A stretch of DNA of 64,000 nt from Acetobacter sp. 46_36 (GTDB taxonomy: Bacteria > Pseudomonadota > Alphaproteobacteria > RF32 > CAG-239): contig MNTT01000014.1 in assembly GCA_001917135.1 (NCBI GenBank), forward strand, positions 73,620-137,619, read 5' to 3'. How positions within the stretch are numbered: position 1 is the stretch's first letter; every line of letters begins with the position of its first letter. Below, piece after piece: positions 53,733 through 62,661 of the stretch. Position numbers and translations under genes: made by a program. The notes under the pieces are model-generated. The model was not told where the DNA came from. It was given only the letters and a program-made list of their open reading frames with translations, and did no database searches.

Positions 53733-56700
53733 TTAAATGACATGTCCGATAGGTCTTCCCCGGCTGTCATAGGCAATGCCGCCGCTTACAGTACCGATAC
53801 GGGTGCCGCTGTTGCCGGTAACTGTTCCGCTGCCGTCTGCACGTCCGATAATATTGCCGTTGTCATCTGCCACGTAAAAAGAATCCATTGTCCAATCTAT
53901 GTGTGTTTTAAATTTATTGGTCTTCTTTTCGCGTCCTTTTGCAAAAACGTCTTGATGGACATAATCTTTGGCGGATTTGCCTTCTAGCGTGGTAATACCG
54001 GAAAATTCGTCCATTCCGAAAAGCAAATCGCCTTTATACCAGTCTTTACCGGCATTAACCGGATCAAGGTCGGCTGCAATCGTTCCGTCTTTTTCGACAA
54101 TCTGATTACCGTCCATCTTGTCAATCACGCTGTCATGTCCCTGCTGGGCGTATGCGGAATATTTGAACAAGGTCGTCTCTCCGGTTGTCTTAACACCGCC
54201 TTTGCGAATGTCGCCGCCGGTGCTTACACCTGTTGTGGTAATATCTACCATACCGTTGGTAAAATGGCGTTTATAATGGGAATTATATTTTGCGTCATCT
54301 TTGGAGTATGTTGTTCCTGCACCGGAGCCATAGCTGACCGAACTGCTGCCGTCAACGTTTTTTCTGGTGTTTTTTTGCTCATCGATATATTCGACCGAAG
54401 AATCTAAAGTATCCCCTTTTTTGTTTTTATATTCTATAATCACCCTGTCATCGTAATAAGTCGTTTCTTTCGTAACATGGCGATTGACTGCTTCTATTTT
54501 TGTATAAGACATTTTTCCGGACGCGGCATCGCGTTTGCTGACATAGACGGCGTTGCCGATTAGGGCTTTCTTTCCGCCCGAGGCAGTAGCTGTTGCATGG
54601 CTTGCCGAATTTAGTTTATTTTCTATGTCAGTCATTTTTTTCAGATGTTTTTCATGCTTTTTATGCGTATCATATTCCATCTCGACACCGTTGCTGTCGT
54701 ATGTCTTTTTTATTTTAGGGCCGAAAAACAAATATTTTTTTGCTTCGCGTTCGTAATATTTTTGTCCCGACGCATCAGTTTTGGCTGTATATGAAACCAA
54801 CCCGCCGGCACTGTCCCATGAATAGGTTCCGTCATGGTTGTCATGCCCTGCCTTCTGTATCATCGTATTGACTACCGCAATATTAATCTTTCTGCCCATC
54901 TTTTTCCGGCCTTGGTTAAGACTGGTTCCGGCCGCCTCAAAGCGATTGGGGCTCCGGTCTTGGAAATAGTCAATAGCCGTCTGACCTGTCGCTTCGTCGA
55001 TTTTCATGCTGAGCGAAGTGATTTTCCCGGTATTGTCCACCTGCTCAATGGTGATGTTATACGGATTGTTAGGGTCAAATTTAATATTGCGTGAACGGTA
55101 ATAGGTACCGACTTCGTCTCCTCTGGCTTTTGCAACCTGAACGGCCAACTGGGACATAATAGCCTTGCGGTATTCCGGTTTTTGCCCCAGAGGGGAGTTG
55201 AGCAGCGTCTGTACGGCACCGATATTGATGTTCCCCGTCTGTTCGTCTAATAAATGATCCAATGCGAAACCATGTTTAAAAGTCGTTTCGTTTTTTACTT
55301 GTTTTCCCGATTTGGTATATTCCTGTTTGATAGTGGAATATTTGTCGGAAATCATAACATGGCGCCGCCCCGTAATGGACGTAAATTCCCGCCTTAAAAC
55401 CTGAGAACCGTCGGCACCTTTTTCCGTAGCAAACGTATATCCCAGCATTTTGATGGTTTTTCCTCCCGATGCGTTCCGGGCGCCAAATCTGTTCACGCCG
55501 AACATCATGCCGCGGCGGACGCCGGCTTTGGCCCGTCTGGCGGTAACGCGTCCGGCGGCTTTTGCTGCGTTTCCGGCAACGCCGGCACCCCAGTCGGCAG
55601 CTTTCCGGGTTTTGGCATCAACTGTATTTTTAACGGCGCTGCCGATTTTGCCGACTGCATTCAGTCCGGAACCGCCGGAAAAATTCCCCGCCAAATCGGA
55701 AACTACCGGCATATAAGCCCAGCCGATAACCAGAATAAAGATGATTTTAAGCATATTGGGGCCGTAAAAGGCAATTCCCTGATTAGGATCCGTAAAGACA
55801 ACCTTGGGATCAGCGGCGCCTTTGGCAAGGGCGGCGCCGAGCAAATCGTTTATATAACCGAGAATGCATAAAATCAAAATAGCCATAAACATAAACGTAA
55901 ACAGCGAGTGTAAAATCCAGGAAAAGACCTTGGGCAAATATCTTTTGGTACCGTCAAAAGCATAGCCGCATACGGCAAAGGGGGCAATAGCCATTGCCAC
56001 GCCGAACTGCAGGACGGCATCGCCCATAACCCAAGGATATGCGACCATAAAGAATATTCCTGCCAGATACAGCAGAATTCCGTCAATAAGGTAAATGGGA
56101 TTCGGAATGATATGGAATATGCGGTCAGGGCCGTTGCCACGGCAAAAAGCCCATTTGCCGAATTCAAACAGCATATTTATCTTGCGTTCAATATCTTCAA
56201 CGGCACATACGATAGATGCTCCGACATTCATAGGCAGTCCGCCGGCTCCTCCCGAACCGGCCGTTCCCGAATAGCCGATAATCCCGCCCGCACTGGCGCA
56301 TGTTGTATTTCCGCTTTTAACGAAAGAAAATCCCGTTTCAAAAATCGGCGTAAGCGTCAAATTTAAGACATTATAGTAGTCTTTGGCGATAATAATGTAA
56401 ATGACAATGCATACAAACGTCTTTTTAAAAATATCATTTAAAAGGGCTCCCGGGTCTTTTGAACCCATTGCCGCAATATTGCGGAGGATAATAAGGGCCA
56501 AAGAAACGCTCAAAAAGACCAGAACAAGCTGTCCGAGTTCGGAAGAAAACGCACTGTAAGATTTTGCCGCAACGATGCTGCCCGCATTAAAAAGGATTTT
56601 AAACATCGGACAGAAAAGGCAATTTGTCGTTTCAGAAGTCGGCGGAACGCAGTTGTCTTCGGTATCGATTCCCAAAGCCCAAGCGGCCGCTTCGCCGGCA

Positions 56701-56825
56701 GCGTCTACGGCGGCATCCTTTAGGTCGCTCCACCAGCCGGCATGAGCGGGGGAAACTGCTGCTAATATCAGCAGCAGGACAAGGAATGGTAAGCTTTTTA
56801 AAATGTATGTTAATGTCTTACGCAT
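53733..56825 (-). CDS. virB6: Giant VirB6/TrbL-family T4SS inner-membrane protein. Signal peptide plus polytopic VirB6 core (about 420 aa) plus about 600-aa hydrophilic K/T/G/Y-rich C-terminal extension ending in Gly-rich repeats.
   Basis: Polytopic core alignable by eye to the upstream paralogs; last of five tandem paralogs. Confidence 0.75.
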   Translation of the reverse strand: MRKTLTYILKSLPFLVLLLILAAVSPAHAGWWSDLKDAAVDAAGEAAAWALGIDTEDNCVPPTSETTNCLFCPMFKILFNAGSIVAAKSYSAFSSELGQLVLVFLSVSLALIILRNIAAMGSKDPGALLNDIFKKTFVCIVIYIIIAKDYYNVLNLTLTPIFETGFSFVKSGNTTCASAGGIIGYSGTAGSGGAGGLPMNVGASIVCAVEDIERKINMLFEFGKWAFCRGNGPDRIFHIIPNPIYLIDGILLYLAGIFFMVAYPWVMGDAVLQFGVAMAIAPFAVCGYAFDGTKRYLPKVFSWILHSLFTFMFMAILILCILGYINDLLGAALAKGAADPKVVFTDPNQGIAFYGPNMLKIIFILVIGWAYMPVVSDLAGNFSGGSGLNAVGKIGSAVKNTVDAKTRKAADWGAGVAGNAAKAAGRVTARRAKAGVRRGMMFGVNRFGARNASGGKTIKMLGYTFATEKGADGSQVLRREFTSITGRRHVMISDKYSTIKQEYTKSGKQVKNETTFKHGFALDHLLDEQTGNINIGAVQTLLNSPLGQKPEYRKAIMSQLAVQVAKARGDEVGTYYRSRNIKFDPNNPYNITIEQVDNTGKITSLSMKIDEATGQTAIDYFQDRSPNRFEAAGTSLNQGRKKMGRKINIAVVNTMIQKAGHDNHDGTYSWDSAGGLVSYTAKTDASGQKYYEREAKKYLFFGPKIKKTYDSNGVEMEYDTHKKHEKHLKKMTDIENKLNSASHATATASGGKKALIGNAVYVSKRDAASGKMSYTKIEAVNRHVTKETTYYDDRVIIEYKNKKGDTLDSSVEYIDEQKNTRKNVDGSSSVSYGSGAGTTYSKDDAKYNSHYKRHFTNGMVDITTTGVSTGGDIRKGGVKTTGETTLFKYSAYAQQGHDSVIDKMDGNQIVEKDGTIAADLDPVNAGKDWYKGDLLFGMDEFSGITTLEGKSAKDYVHQDVFAKGREKKTNKFKTHIDWTMDSFYVADDNGNIIGRADGSGTVTGNSGTRIGTVSGGIAYDSRGRPIGHVI

Positions 56826-62639: not shown

Positions 62640-62661
62640 TCATACCAACAACCGATTTCAT
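62440..62661 (-). CDS. Small 2-TM membrane protein heading the virB6 array; possible divergent VirB3 (or VirB2-like) component.
   Basis: 73 aa with two hydrophobic helices; position matches virB3 in rvh-type loci; lacks a clear VirB3 signature. Confidence 0.3.
   Translation of the reverse strand: MKSVVGMIVVFIGLYIIAYSDIMGFFAQKTLYYTALGCVCIALAMAAAFLGTPFTKPLFKRRGDDNDKTSHLH

What the first reader, a model, noticed from the sequence alone, without database searches (positions are those of the whole stretch)
53733..62661. Five tandem virB6 paralogs headed by a tiny 2-TM ORF, with no virB4 between them
The array comprises a VirB3-position small ORF followed by virB6 x5, separated by 4-15-nt gaps. 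It resembles the Rickettsiales sodB-virB3-virB4-virB6(n) block, but the large virB4 ATPase gene is absent. The heading ORF (73 aa) also lacks a clear VirB3 signature. Two paralogs carry lipoprotein-type signal peptides (LFLSAC, LFLTAC) and one is a 1030-aa giant. This suggests lineage-specific remodelling of the T4SS inner-membrane platform.
Basis: partly seen in the sequence, partly recalled or inferred. Interest (0 to 1): 0.55.

Follow-up and report, generated by a model that had tools for sequence, protein, structure and literature searches.

The report
Five-paralog VirB6 gene array, gut alphaproteobacterium
This stretch encodes five diverged copies (one split into two genes) of the VirB6 core membrane protein of a type IV secretion machine, plus a tiny partner protein, in a very common uncultured human-gut bacterium; the missing virB4 motor gene is not lost but sits about 78 kb away with the rest of the machine.

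Summary
On the minus strand of 53733-62661 lie a 73-aa two-helix membrane ORF and six tightly packed ORFs. These make five VirB6 equivalents, because the fourth is split into an N half and a C half. VirB6 identity rests on mutual BLAST similarity, weak but recurrent Pfam TrbL hits, and AlphaFold models whose top PDB matches are all R388 TrwI/VirB6. The whole block is syntenic in 27 species-level gut Alphaproteobacteria MAGs and in a far more distant lineage.

No virB4 lies beyond the right window edge; relatives have a divergent rRNA operon there. In the window's own species virB4 is present about 24-26 kb left of the window. It sits in a main operon: virB2-like genes, a 96-aa VirB3-like ORF, virB4, five unknowns, virB8, a 62-aa ORF, virB8, virB9, a giant beta-flower protein, virB10, virB11. 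That operon contains no VirB6. The 73-aa ORF is neither VirB3 nor VirB2; it is a conserved partner translationally coupled to paralog B6a.

This is a new variant of the multi-copy-VirB6 theme known from Rickettsiales. New features are a different gene partition, a conserved split VirB6 and two VirB6 paralogs with conserved lipoboxes.

The parts
62440..62661 (-). S73: 73-aa small membrane protein with two hydrophobic helices (residues 4-22 and 36-54) and a charged C-terminal tail. It is a translationally coupled partner of B6a, and is neither VirB3 nor VirB2.
   Evidence: An ORF was found at this position in 23 of the related loci examined, with an MKSV..G.IV.F.GLY motif. hhalign against the clade's 96-aa VirB3-like protein gives probability 0.4%. 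None of 23 members hits Pfam VirB3 or TrbC at E<=1. It overlaps the B6a start by 26 nt. The orthologue in distant L041 overlaps the next VirB6 gene by 11 nt.
61113..62465 (-). B6a: VirB6/TrbL-like paralog of 450 aa with a Sec-type signal peptide (AWA|DE), a Cys-rich N-terminal segment and several hydrophobic helices.
   Evidence: Pfam TrbL E=1.1e-5, 25.8 bits against a cutoff of 25.9. It is 36% identical to B6b at E=1e-82. Hydropathy is and the start codon with its SD sequence.
59697..61097 (-). B6b: VirB6-like paralog of 466 aa with a lipoprotein signal peptide (LFLSAC|DD).
   Evidence: Pfam TrbL E=3.5e-3; 16 of 50 family members hit TrbL. The AlphaFold2 model has pLDDT 64.7, and its top 7 Foldseek PDB hits are all R388 TrwI/VirB6 (E=3e-4, probability 1.0, TM 0.52-0.61). 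A lipobox Cys is present in 27 of 27 orthologues.
58375..59682 (-). B6c: VirB6-like paralog of 435 aa with a lipoprotein signal peptide (LFLTAC|EK).
   Evidence: BLASTP to B6b gives E=1.5e-9. The AlphaFold2 model has pLDDT 66.6, and its top 7 PDB hits are TrwI/VirB6 (probability 0.94-1.0). A lipobox is conserved in every orthologue whose N-terminus was read, 26 loci. The L041 orthologue hits Pfam TrbL weakly.
57843..58382 (-). B6d-N: N-terminal half of a split VirB6 paralog, 179 aa, with its own signal peptide (AFA|ED) and a CxxC segment.
   Evidence: It aligns to B6b residues 56-171 and B6a residues 125-240. It is a separate ORF in 25 of the 26 loci where the junction could be read and in distant L041, but is fused in L011.
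56837..57841 (-). B6d-C: C-terminal half of the split VirB6 paralog, 334 aa, with its own signal peptide. Its ATG lies 1 nt after the B6d-N stop, behind a GGAGGA SD sequence.
   Evidence: It aligns to B6a residues 248-495 and B6b residues 178-298. The junction is read directly. The junction frame relation varies among species (0, +1, +2), so this is re-initiation rather than recoding.
53733..56825 (-). B6e: extended VirB6 paralog of 1030 aa. It has a signal peptide, a VirB6-like hydrophobic domain (about residues 60-430) and a roughly 600-aa hydrophilic C-terminal extension ending in one beta-flower unit.
   Evidence: Pfam TrbL E=5e-4 over residues 240-335; Bflower_2 E=1.5e-3 over residues 985-1029. 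BLASTP to B6b gives E=1e-13 to 7e-15 depending on which is the query. The reading frame spans 736-1273 codons, stop to stop, across species. The C-terminal unit matches the beta-flower giant of the main operon.
52442..53431 (-). Double HTH_3 (XRE-type) DNA-binding protein of 329 aa, always directly downstream of the array. It is a candidate regulator by inference only.
   Evidence: Pfam HTH_3 occurs twice, E=1.4e-25. It is 82-100% identical in the 25 related loci that reach this gene, and still adjacent to the array in L041 at 65% identity.
62734..63994 (-). Two syntenic upstream ORFs of unknown function: up279 (62734-63573) and a lipoprotein-like 136-aa ORF (63584-63994). They separate the array from a divergent rRNA operon just beyond the window.
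   Evidence: They have no Pfam or NCBIfam family. up279 precedes the array in 26 of 27 related loci; the exception, L016, starts inside B6a. up136 was found in 18. The rRNA operon is seen in L021 and L006.
1..3103 (+). The 3' end of the main T4SS operon of the same machine. It comprises the C-terminal 669 aa of a 1442-aa VirB10 (1-2024) and virB11 (2123-3103).
   Evidence: Pfam TrbI E=9e-30 plus Bflower_2; T2SSE E=5e-27. NCBIfam gives VirB11 TIGR02788 at 4.8e-47 and ComB10/VirB10 at 8.8e-35 and 1.6e-25. Full genes and upstream context are in L028-L033, L043, L044 and L049.

Best explanation
The region is the VirB6 module of a chromosomal, vertically inherited VirB/Trb-type (P-type) type IV secretion system. 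The host is an uncultured but very prevalent human-gut alphaproteobacterium.

In this lineage virB6 is absent from its usual place in the operon and lies about 50 kb from the operon's 3' end, on the other side of the dnaA region and next to an rRNA operon. It exists there as five diverged, individually conserved paralogs. One of these is encoded as two polypeptides, each with its own signal peptide. Two have conserved lipoprotein-type signal peptides. One is an 'extended VirB6' with a 600-aa tail. The array also holds a 73-aa two-helix protein translationally coupled to the first paralog.

Shown: gene content, paralogy, fold, synteny, and the position of virB3/virB4 elsewhere in the same species.

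Inferred: these proteins supply the VirB6 stalk base and pilin-assembly platform that is a homopentamer in the R388 machine. Exactly five non-redundant equivalents are kept in two deeply diverged lineages. My preferred mechanism is therefore that they co-assemble into one heteromeric, possibly heteropentameric, platform rather than acting as interchangeable spares. I put that at about 0.4. In this view S73 is a B6a-specific membrane partner or assembly factor, and the adjacent double-HTH protein is a possible regulator.
For: VirB6 identity:
- Pfam TrbL is the only recurrent family: B6a 1.1e-5, B6e 5e-4, B6b 3.5e-3, and 16 of 50 family members.
- AlphaFold2 models of B6b and B6c both have R388 TrwI/VirB6 chains as their top 7 PDB matches.
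- All seven ORFs except S73 are mutually similar.
- Each has a signal peptide followed by three to seven further hydrophobic segments.

Belongs to a T4SS:
- virB10 and virB11 lie in the same window.
- Overlapping contigs of the same species (98.7-99.4% DNA identity) give this order: two TrbC/VirB2-like genes plus a third ORF of similar size, a 96-aa VirB3-like ORF, virB4, five unknowns, virB8, a 62-aa ORF, virB8, virB9, a 2195-aa protein whose copy in L033 hits Pfam Bflower_2, virB10, virB11.
- Six related species have the same order.
- No VirB6-like gene exists in those operon loci. That was shown by tblastn for L028-L040. For the later loci it rests on Pfam: precomputed marks for L042-L045 and partial hmmscan of L034, L036 and L049.

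Conserved and non-redundant:
- The order a, b, c, dN, dC, e is the same in all 27 species-level genome loci that carry the array, at 37-97% identity.
- Five equivalents, the split and the S73-VirB6 coupling recur in distant L041.

Chromosomal context:
- dnaA, dnaN, recF, yidC, rnpA, mfd and recG lie between the two loci.

Pentamer precedent:
- R388 VirB6 is a pentamer at the stalk base (PMC9259494).
Against: - The Pfam TrbL scores are below or at the gathering threshold, and there is no sequence-level hit to PDB VirB6.
- The AlphaFold models are of medium confidence (pLDDT 65-67). The B6c model used an alignment dominated by B6b orthologues.
- Co-assembly is pure inference. No expression, interaction or stoichiometry data exist.
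- Anaplasmataceae and Wolbachia keep four copies, not five (PMC12407924), so the number five need not reflect the pentamer.
- No virD4 coupling protein was seen in any locus examined, so the substrate and function of the machine are unknown.
- The whole genome could not be searched for further virB6, virB4 or virB9 copies.
Confidence: 0.8

Rival explanations
1. The paralogs are alternatives rather than partners. Each forms its own homo-oligomeric platform, and the cell switches between them. Switching could serve pilus growth versus substrate transfer, different substrates or target cells, or surface variation through the variable extensions.
For: - The extensions are lineage-variable. The B6e reading frame spans 736-1273 codons, and L041 has a Peptidase_M23-bearing version.
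- For Rickettsiales, the authors of the Wolbachia study describe the duplicated copies as 'presumably functionally redundant' and their role as 'a mystery' (PMC12407924).
- AlphaFold-type modelling of single VirB6 homologues as homopentamers is reported in the literature (PMC12857230).
Against: - The genes are packed with overlaps or gaps of 1-15 nt and no convincing internal promoters or terminators. The scan found no more sites than in shuffled sequence. This favours co-expression.
- Every paralog, including a half-gene pair, is retained in all 27 species and in a distant lineage. That is unusual for redundant spares.
Confidence: 0.3
2. One reading: a Rickettsiales-type virB3-virB4-virB6(n) islet that has lost virB4, with the 73-aa ORF a degenerate VirB3.
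For: - The small two-helix ORF heads the array in the window, and virB4 is absent locally.
- Rickettsia islet A is virB3-virB4a-virB6a-e (PMC2653234).
Against: - virB4, with an overlapping 96-aa VirB3-like ORF, is present in the main operon of the same species. The L036 orthologue of that ORF hits Pfam VirB3 at E=1.4e-3.
- S73 shows no profile similarity to that protein (probability 0.4%) or to Pfam VirB3 or TrbC.
- In L041 the S73 orthologue is internal to the array.
Confidence: 0.05
3. The array is a remnant or cargo of a mobile element (ICE or plasmid) and is unrelated to the chromosomal virB operon.
For: - G+C is slightly higher in the array (0.46-0.48) than in neighbouring DNA (0.41-0.44).
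- T4SS genes are often mobile.
Against: - No relaxase, integrase, repeats or tRNA flank the array.
- The position between an rRNA operon and the HTH gene is identical in 27 species and in a distant lineage.
- The main operon lacks any VirB6 of its own.
Confidence: 0.03
4. The proteins are an unrelated family of polytopic membrane proteins whose TrbL and TrwI similarity is fortuitous.
For: The Pfam scores are sub-threshold, and there are no NCBIfam or PDB sequence hits.
Against: - Two independent models both retrieve only TrwI/VirB6 chains at the top.
- TrbL is the only family recurring across 50 members.
- NCBI annotates relatives as 'type IV secretion system protein'.
- The T4SS otherwise has no VirB6.
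Confidence: 0.03

Closest known systems
Rickettsia rvh T4SS islet A (virB3-virB4a-virB6a-e) and the rvh 'archipelago' (Gillespie et al. 2009, PMC2653234)
   Same: - Five tandem, strongly diverged VirB6 paralogs, some with long hydrophilic extensions.
- A chromosomal T4SS split into separate loci.
- Two virB8 genes flanking a small ORF in the virB7 position, followed by virB9-virB10-virB11. Rickettsia islet C is B9a-B8a-B7-B8b-B9b-B10-B11-D4.
- No recognisable VirB5.
- The VirB10 domain scores best against ComB10. Gillespie et al. reported ComB-like affinities for Rickettsia VirB7 and VirB9, which are different subunits.
   Different: - virB3 and virB4 stay with virB8-virB11 instead of heading the virB6 array.
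- Only one virB4 and one virB9 were seen.
- No virD4 follows virB11.
- There are tandem virB2-like genes, and five extra unknown genes between virB4 and virB8.
- One VirB6 is split.
- Two VirB6 paralogs carry lipoboxes.
- A dedicated 73-aa partner ORF is present.
- The host is a roughly 2-Mb gut bacterium with inconsistent placeholder names ('Acetobacter sp.', 'uncultured Rickettsiales bacterium').
- No specific sequence affinity to Rickettsiales proteins was demonstrated.
Anaplasmataceae and Wolbachia sodB-virB3-virB4-virB6(x4) clusters
   Same: Tandem virB6 copies, multiple virB2 copies and duplicated virB8 (PMC12407924).
   Different: - Four copies rather than five.
- virB4 is adjacent to the array there and 78 kb away here.
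- No sodB, and no virB3 at the head of the array here.
R388 TrwI / A. tumefaciens VirB6 (single-copy VirB6 forming the pentameric stalk base)
   Same: Predicted fold (Foldseek probability 1.0), a hydrophobic helical bundle, and the presumed role as the platform between the inner-membrane complex and the pilus or stalk.
   Different: - TrwI chains in the PDB are 188-272 residues, are encoded by a single gene and form a homopentamer.
- Here there are five 435-1030-aa paralogs, all with cleavable signal peptides, N-terminal Cys-rich segments and basic C-terminal tails.
'Extended VirB6' subfamily (Alvarez-Martinez and Christie 2009; Bao et al. 2009, as cited in PMC12857230)
   Same: B6e, like the 600-1600-aa relatives found by profile search, has the hydrophobic VirB6 core plus a large hydrophilic domain.
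   Different: - The extension here ends in a beta-flower unit shared with the system's giant VirB10 and with a 2195-aa operon protein.
- In L041 the equivalent protein carries a Peptidase_M23 domain.

Membership tests
VirB6/TrbL (Pfam PF04610) | Match to the family HMM at or above the gathering score | tested here: inconclusive
   B6a scores 25.8 bits against a cutoff of 25.9 (E=1.1e-5), B6e 20.2 bits and B6b 17.6 bits. B6c, B6d-N and B6d-C give no hit. 16 of 50 family members hit at E<=0.01, and TrbL is the only recurrent family.
VirB6/TrbL (Pfam PF04610) | VirB6 fold: long mostly hydrophobic helices as in TrwI | tested here: met
   The B6b and B6c AlphaFold2 models each have TrwI/VirB6 chains of 8rt9, 7o3v and 8rtd as their top 7 PDB hits. 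Probabilities are 0.94-1.0 and target-normalised TM scores 0.46-0.61. The models are of medium confidence.
VirB6/TrbL (Pfam PF04610) | Polytopic protein with about five or more hydrophobic helices | tested here: met
   A Kyte-Doolittle scan finds 4-7 hydrophobic segments after the signal peptide in B6a, B6b, B6c and B6e, and 2+3 in the split pair.
VirB6/TrbL (Pfam PF04610) | Encoded with the other T4SS subunits of one machine | tested here: met
   The array is not adjacent to them. However, it lies on the same 64-kb window as virB10 and virB11, and the main operon has no VirB6 of its own.
Rickettsiales vir homolog (rvh) T4SS | Multi-copy VirB6 | tested here: met
   There are five equivalents.
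Rickettsiales vir homolog (rvh) T4SS | Duplicated VirB8 | tested here: met
   Two Pfam VirB8 genes (252 and 254 aa) flank a 62-aa ORF in the window's species (L043, L044). The same holds in six relatives.
Rickettsiales vir homolog (rvh) T4SS | Duplicated VirB9 and VirB4 | tested here: inconclusive
   Only one CagX/VirB9 and one VirB4 were found in about 95 kb of the species' chromosome that was examined. The rest of the genome could not be searched.
Rickettsiales vir homolog (rvh) T4SS | virB3-virB4 heading the virB6 array; virD4 after virB11 | tested here: not met
   virB3-like and virB4 lie in the main operon about 78 kb away. virB11 is followed by engB and yidC on the other strand.
Rickettsiales vir homolog (rvh) T4SS | No VirB5 analogue | not testable with these tools
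   Five unknown secreted or coiled-coil proteins lie between virB4 and virB8. None matches Pfam or PDB VirB5 by sequence. A fold test was not possible.
Rickettsiales vir homolog (rvh) T4SS | Phylogenetic affinity of subunits, or of the host, to Rickettsiales | not tested
   Homologues found are all from gut MAGs labelled Alphaproteobacteria, Rhodospirillales or 'Acetobacter sp.'. VirB8 shows only weak, non-specific PDB hits. No tree could be built.
VirB3 (Pfam PF05101), tested for S73 | HMM or profile similarity to VirB3, and a gene directly preceding or overlapping virB4 | tested here: not met
   No member hits VirB3 at E<=1. hhalign against the clade's VirB3-like protein gives probability 0.4%. 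S73 precedes a VirB6 gene, not virB4.
VirB2/TrbC pilin (Pfam PF04956), tested for S73 | HMM similarity; a long signal peptide followed by two hydrophobic helices | tested here: not met
   There is no TrbC hit. TrbC-type genes are present in the main operon instead.
Bacterial lipoprotein, tested for B6b and B6c | Lipobox L-[ASTC]-[GASC]-C at the end of an N-terminal signal peptide | tested here: met
   The sequences are LFLSAC and LFLTAC. The Cys and a lipobox-like context are kept in the B6b orthologue of all 27 genomes and in every B6c orthologue whose N-terminus was read. Actual lipidation, for example by globomycin or LspA dependence, cannot be tested here.

The most novel reading that the evidence does not exclude
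The pentameric VirB6 platform of this machine is an obligate hetero-pentamer built from five different gene products. One protomer is assembled from two separately exported polypeptides, two protomers are lipid-anchored, and a 73-aa protein acts as a dedicated chaperone or sixth subunit. If so, the unexplained VirB6 multiplication of rvh-type systems is a general route from a C5 homo-oligomer to an asymmetric stalk base. It would also be neither confined to nor diagnostic of Rickettsiales, because it occurs in abundant extracellular gut Alphaproteobacteria.
Probability: 0.25. Interest if true: 0.8.

Novelty: new variant of a known kind. Interest (0 to 1): 0.6.

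Why it matters
Multi-copy VirB6 is treated as a hallmark of the Rickettsiales rvh system. That system is described as 'a bona fide rickettsial signature' (PMC11077975), and the reason for its duplications is called 'a mystery' (PMC12407924).

Here the same theme appears in a roughly 2-Mb gut bacterium that is very widespread. The exact 62-aa operon protein is indexed in more than 10,000 blocks of the assembly collection.

The gene partition is different, and three natural experiments come with it:
- a split VirB6 conserved in almost all species but fused in one;
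- VirB6 paralogs with conserved lipoprotein signals;
- a fixed count of five equivalents, matching the pentamer seen in the R388 structure.

This gives comparative material for asking whether the paralogs are subunits of one asymmetric platform. It also flags an undescribed, elaborate secretion machine, with giant beta-flower VirB10 and accessory proteins, in a common member of the human microbiota whose biology is unknown.

Tried and rejected
- A PDB sequence search with the family profile found no VirB6. NCBIfam found nothing for the array proteins.
- The promoter and terminator scan was no better than shuffled sequence.
- PDB sequence searches found nothing for the B6e C-terminal 590 aa or for the 276-aa protein after virB4.
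- VirB8-I and VirB8-II against the PDB gave only weak, non-specific VirB8 hits, so they give no evidence for a Rickettsia affinity.
- The homologue search with the 2195-aa beta-flower protein was swamped by repeats and did not return the protein itself.
- The first metagenome scan with the g2 protein found nothing.
- Five of seven walks with P-ids (g2 orthologues and the beta-flower protein P0071) landed in sister species rather than the window's species. The window's species was finally reached through cluster look-ups and the second metagenome scan.
- Literature searches for this clade plus T4SS or virB6 found nothing. One search was wasted on a loose query.
- Rejected ideas: programmed frameshift at the B6d junction, because the frame relation differs between species and each half has its own signal peptide and SD sequence; the 508-aa long form of B6a; d1011 as a divergent VirB4, because it is acidic and disordered with no P-loop.

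Full report
**1. What is there.**

The finding's coordinates exactly span a minus-strand gene block. I refined the starts from the DNA:

| Gene | Coordinates | Length | Note |
|---|---|---|---|
| S73 | 62661-62440 | 73 aa | two hydrophobic helices |
| B6a | 62465-61113 | 450 aa | |
| B6b | 61097-59697 | 466 aa | |
| B6c | 59682-58375 | 435 aa | |
| B6d-N | 58382-57843 | 179 aa | |
| B6d-C | 57841-56837 | 334 aa | |
| B6e | 56825-53733 | 1030 aa | |

- The junctions are -26, +15, +14, -8, +1 and +11 nt.
- Shine-Dalgarno motifs sit inside the preceding gene at the two junctions I read directly: GAGGTG before B6a and GGAGGA before B6d-C.
- The mechanically listed 508-aa ORF is a frame artefact over S73. 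That frame is open only in the window and its nearest relative, whereas the S73 frame is open and conserved in the 23 related loci where I extracted it.

**2. Are they VirB6?**

- All six large ORFs are mutually similar. B6a/B6b share 36% identity at E=1e-82; the other pairs give E=1e-5 to 1e-15.
- B6d-N matches only the N-terminal half of the others, and B6d-C matches only the C-terminal half.
- Pfam TrbL/VirB6 is the only family hit. It is just at or below threshold (25.8 bits against 25.9 for B6a), but it recurs in 16 of 50 family members.
- NCBIfam and a profile search of PDB sequences found nothing.
- AlphaFold2 models of B6b (pLDDT 64.7) and B6c (pLDDT 66.6) each retrieve the TrwI/VirB6 chains of the R388 T4SS as their top seven PDB matches (probability 0.94-1.0).
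- Each protein has an N-terminal signal peptide, a Cys-rich segment (C...CxxC in B6a, B6b, B6d-N and B6e), several hydrophobic helices and a basic tail.
- I accept VirB6 membership on fold, architecture and context. I note that the HMM criterion is only borderline.

**3. Conservation.**

- A genome-collection scan found 27 species-level MAGs with an orthologue of B6b, from human, ruminant and mouse gut. Their labels vary: Alphaproteobacteria, 'Acetobacter sp.', Rhodospirillales and 'Rickettsiales'.
- In the 27 loci, wherever the contig reaches, the order is up136 (found in 18), up279, S73, B6a, B6b, B6c, B6d-N, B6d-C, B6e, HTH, d1011, d165. Identities are 37-97% for the VirB6 genes.
- The lipobox cysteine of B6b is kept in all 27 genomes. 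That of B6c is kept in every orthologue whose N-terminus was read (26 loci).
- The B6d split is present in 25 of the 26 loci where the junction could be read. The spacers are short, there is a strong SD sequence, and the C half has its own signal peptide.
- The frame relation between the halves differs among species (0, +1, +2). This excludes a conserved recoding event.
- One species (L011) has a single 476-aa fused ORF without the internal signal peptide.
- A profile search of 1.84 billion representative proteins found 1061 relatives (E<=1e-3). Many are 600-1600 aa, and the named ones come from gut Alphaproteobacteria or Rhodospirillales MAGs.
- One such distant locus, L041, has the HTH neighbour at 65% identity and its VirB6 genes at about 21-34% identity to the window's paralogs. 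It again has five equivalents including the split pair. Its S73 orthologue overlaps the second VirB6 gene, so S73 lies inside the array, not at its head.

**4. Where is virB4?**

*The right-hand edge of the window.*
- Upstream of S73 the window holds two unrelated ORFs.
- Almost all related contigs end about 3 kb upstream of B6b.
- L021 shows a complete divergent rRNA operon there, and L006 ends inside its 16S gene.
- So nothing T4SS-related lies just beyond the right edge.

*The left-hand edge of the window.*
- The window starts inside a 1442-aa VirB10, followed by virB11.

*Walking upstream in relatives*. This revealed a conserved operon with this order:
- three virB2/TrbC-like genes;
- a 142-148-aa ORF;
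- a 96-aa ORF that overlaps virB4 by 4 nt and hits Pfam VirB3 (E=1.4e-3);
- virB4 (809 aa);
- five unknowns;
- virB8, a roughly 63-aa lipoprotein, virB8;
- virB9;
- a beta-flower giant;
- virB10 and virB11.

*The window's own species.*
- I assembled a chain of overlaps at 98.7-99.4% DNA identity: L049, then L044/L045, then L043, then the window.
- It contains two TrbC-type genes plus a third small ORF.
- It contains the 96-aa VirB3-like ORF, 52% identical to the L036 protein.
- It contains virB4 (Pfam CagE_TrbE_VirB 1.5e-9; TIGR00929 1.9e-110; 67% identical to L036 VirB4).
- virB4 lies at window-equivalent positions of about -26.4 to -23.9 kb.
- That is about 78 kb from the array, with dnaA, dnaN and recF in between.

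*VirB6 and virD4 in the operon loci.*
- No VirB6-like gene occurs in any operon locus. tblastn shows this for L028-L040.
- For the later loci the evidence is Pfam: precomputed marks for L042-L045 and partial hmmscan of L034, L036 and L049.
- No virD4 was seen.

**5. The small ORF.**

- S73 orthologues are 62-75 aa, with two hydrophobic helices and a K/R-G-D/E-rich tail.
- Profile-profile comparison with the clade's VirB3-like protein gives probability 0.4%.
- None of 23 members hits Pfam VirB3 or TrbC.
- S73 is therefore a lineage-specific small membrane protein. Its only constant feature is translational coupling to a B6a/B6b-type paralog.

**6. Mechanism.**

*Shown:*
- A P-type T4SS whose only VirB6 genes are these.
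- Five individually conserved equivalents, all exported by Sec. Two have conserved lipoprotein signals, one is split and one is extended.

*From the literature:*
- VirB6 forms a pentamer that is the base of the stalk and the proposed pilin assembly site in R388 (PMC9259494).
- The role of extended VirB6 proteins and of the rvh duplications is unknown (PMC12857230; PMC12407924).

*Inferred:*
- The tight packing and universal retention of every paralog argue for co-expression and non-redundancy.
- I favour a heteromeric platform (about 0.4) over condition-specific alternates (about 0.3).
- The beta-flower unit at the B6e C-terminus is shared with VirB10 and with the 2195-aa operon protein. This hints at a common interaction or surface module.

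**7. Comparison with known systems.**

Rickettsia has islets A (virB3-virB4a-virB6a-e) and C (B9a-B8a-B7-B8b-B9b-B10-B11-D4) (PMC2653234).

*Shared here:*
- five VirB6 copies;
- a B8, small ORF, B8, B9, B10, B11 core;
- several virB2-like genes (tandem here), as in Anaplasmataceae and Wolbachia;
- a split chromosomal layout;
- a ComB10-like VirB10.

*Different here:*
- where virB3 and virB4 sit;
- apparently single virB4 and virB9;
- no adjacent virD4;
- the extra unknown genes;
- the split VirB6, the VirB6 paralogs with lipoboxes and S73.

I could not show phylogenetic affinity to rvh, so I do not file the system as rvh. It works like one in its architecture.

**8. Verdict.**

- The array is a real, conserved and, in the open literature I could search, undescribed variant of the multi-copy-VirB6 theme.
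- The host is a highly prevalent gut alphaproteobacterium (exact operon proteins in more than 9,000-10,000 assembly blocks).
- Interest is 0.6. Novelty: new variant of a known kind.

Noticed in passing
window 1-2024; L043:3412-14329: VirB10 is a 1442-aa giant with beta-flower (PF21785/PF21784) repeats N-terminal to the TrbI domain. A 2195-aa protein sits between virB9 and virB10; its copy in L033 hits Pfam Bflower_2, and the homologue search with it returned beta-flower proteins. Related species have 1266-1684-aa versions, or 2200-2400-aa fusions with VirB10. The beta-flower fold is known only from AlphaFold-based family discovery (PMC10584680).
   Followed up: partly
L036, L038, L039, L040, L042 (virB4 genes): VirB4 is 94-99% identical in protein sequence among five sister species. 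Neighbouring T4SS proteins in the same operons are far more diverged: DNA identity is about 65-79% between two of these species, and VirB8, VirB9 and g3 are only 22-66% identical to the window's species. This is an unusually steep contrast in constraint.
   Followed up: partly
window 52442-53431 (-): A 329-aa protein with two HTH_3 domains lies directly downstream of the array. It is 82-100% identical across the 25 related loci that reach it, more conserved than any VirB6 paralog. It keeps this position in the distant locus L041 (65% identity). It is a possible dedicated regulator.
   Followed up: partly
window 49342-52377 (-): A 1011-aa highly acidic protein, probably disordered. It has repeated DDLDF.LP motifs and a C-terminal duplicated DWEWEYV motif. 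Only the N-terminal ~295 aa and C-terminal ~130 aa are conserved across species. It is syntenic with the array, has no family match, and could be an effector or scaffold.
   Followed up: no
beyond window 64000; L021:2184-7082; L006:1-753: A divergently transcribed rRNA operon (16S, tRNA-Ile, tRNA-Ala, 23S, 5S) lies about 0.5 kb upstream of the up136/up279 genes. It explains why nearly all related contigs, and probably the window's source contig, end here.
   Followed up: yes
L011:6197-7627: One species has the B6d halves fused into a single 476-aa ORF that lacks the internal signal peptide. L009 and L010 have the halves in the same frame, separated by one stop codon.
   Followed up: yes
L041:11220-15407: In a distant lineage the B6e-like protein is 1395 aa and carries a Peptidase_M23 (peptidoglycan hydrolase) domain. 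This may be a VirB1-like activity fused to a VirB6.
   Followed up: no
L049:735-3347 (-); window 47511-48935 (-): A TcpQ-domain protein (378 aa) and a 466-aa protein are transcribed divergently from the main T4SS operon. Near the array there is a lipoprotein-like protein (474-aa ORF, 47511-48935) with no family match. Their relation to the T4SS is unknown.
   Followed up: no
window 8275-12219 and 3154-5516: The two T4SS loci bracket the replication-origin neighbourhood, which holds dnaA, dnaN, recF, gpsA, yidC and engB. By synteny with L028-L033, rpmH and rnpA lie there too.
   Followed up: partly
window 35986-36080 (+): A bacterial small SRP RNA (Rfam RF00169, 63.5 bits) lies just upstream of dnaX.
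   Followed up: no
L044:1332-1562 vs L045: Two strains of the window's species differ in the gene called just upstream of the 232-aa ORF. One has a 686-aa product plus a 76-aa ORF; the other has a single 744-aa product. This suggests a frameshift or strain polymorphism in that unknown operon protein.
   Followed up: no
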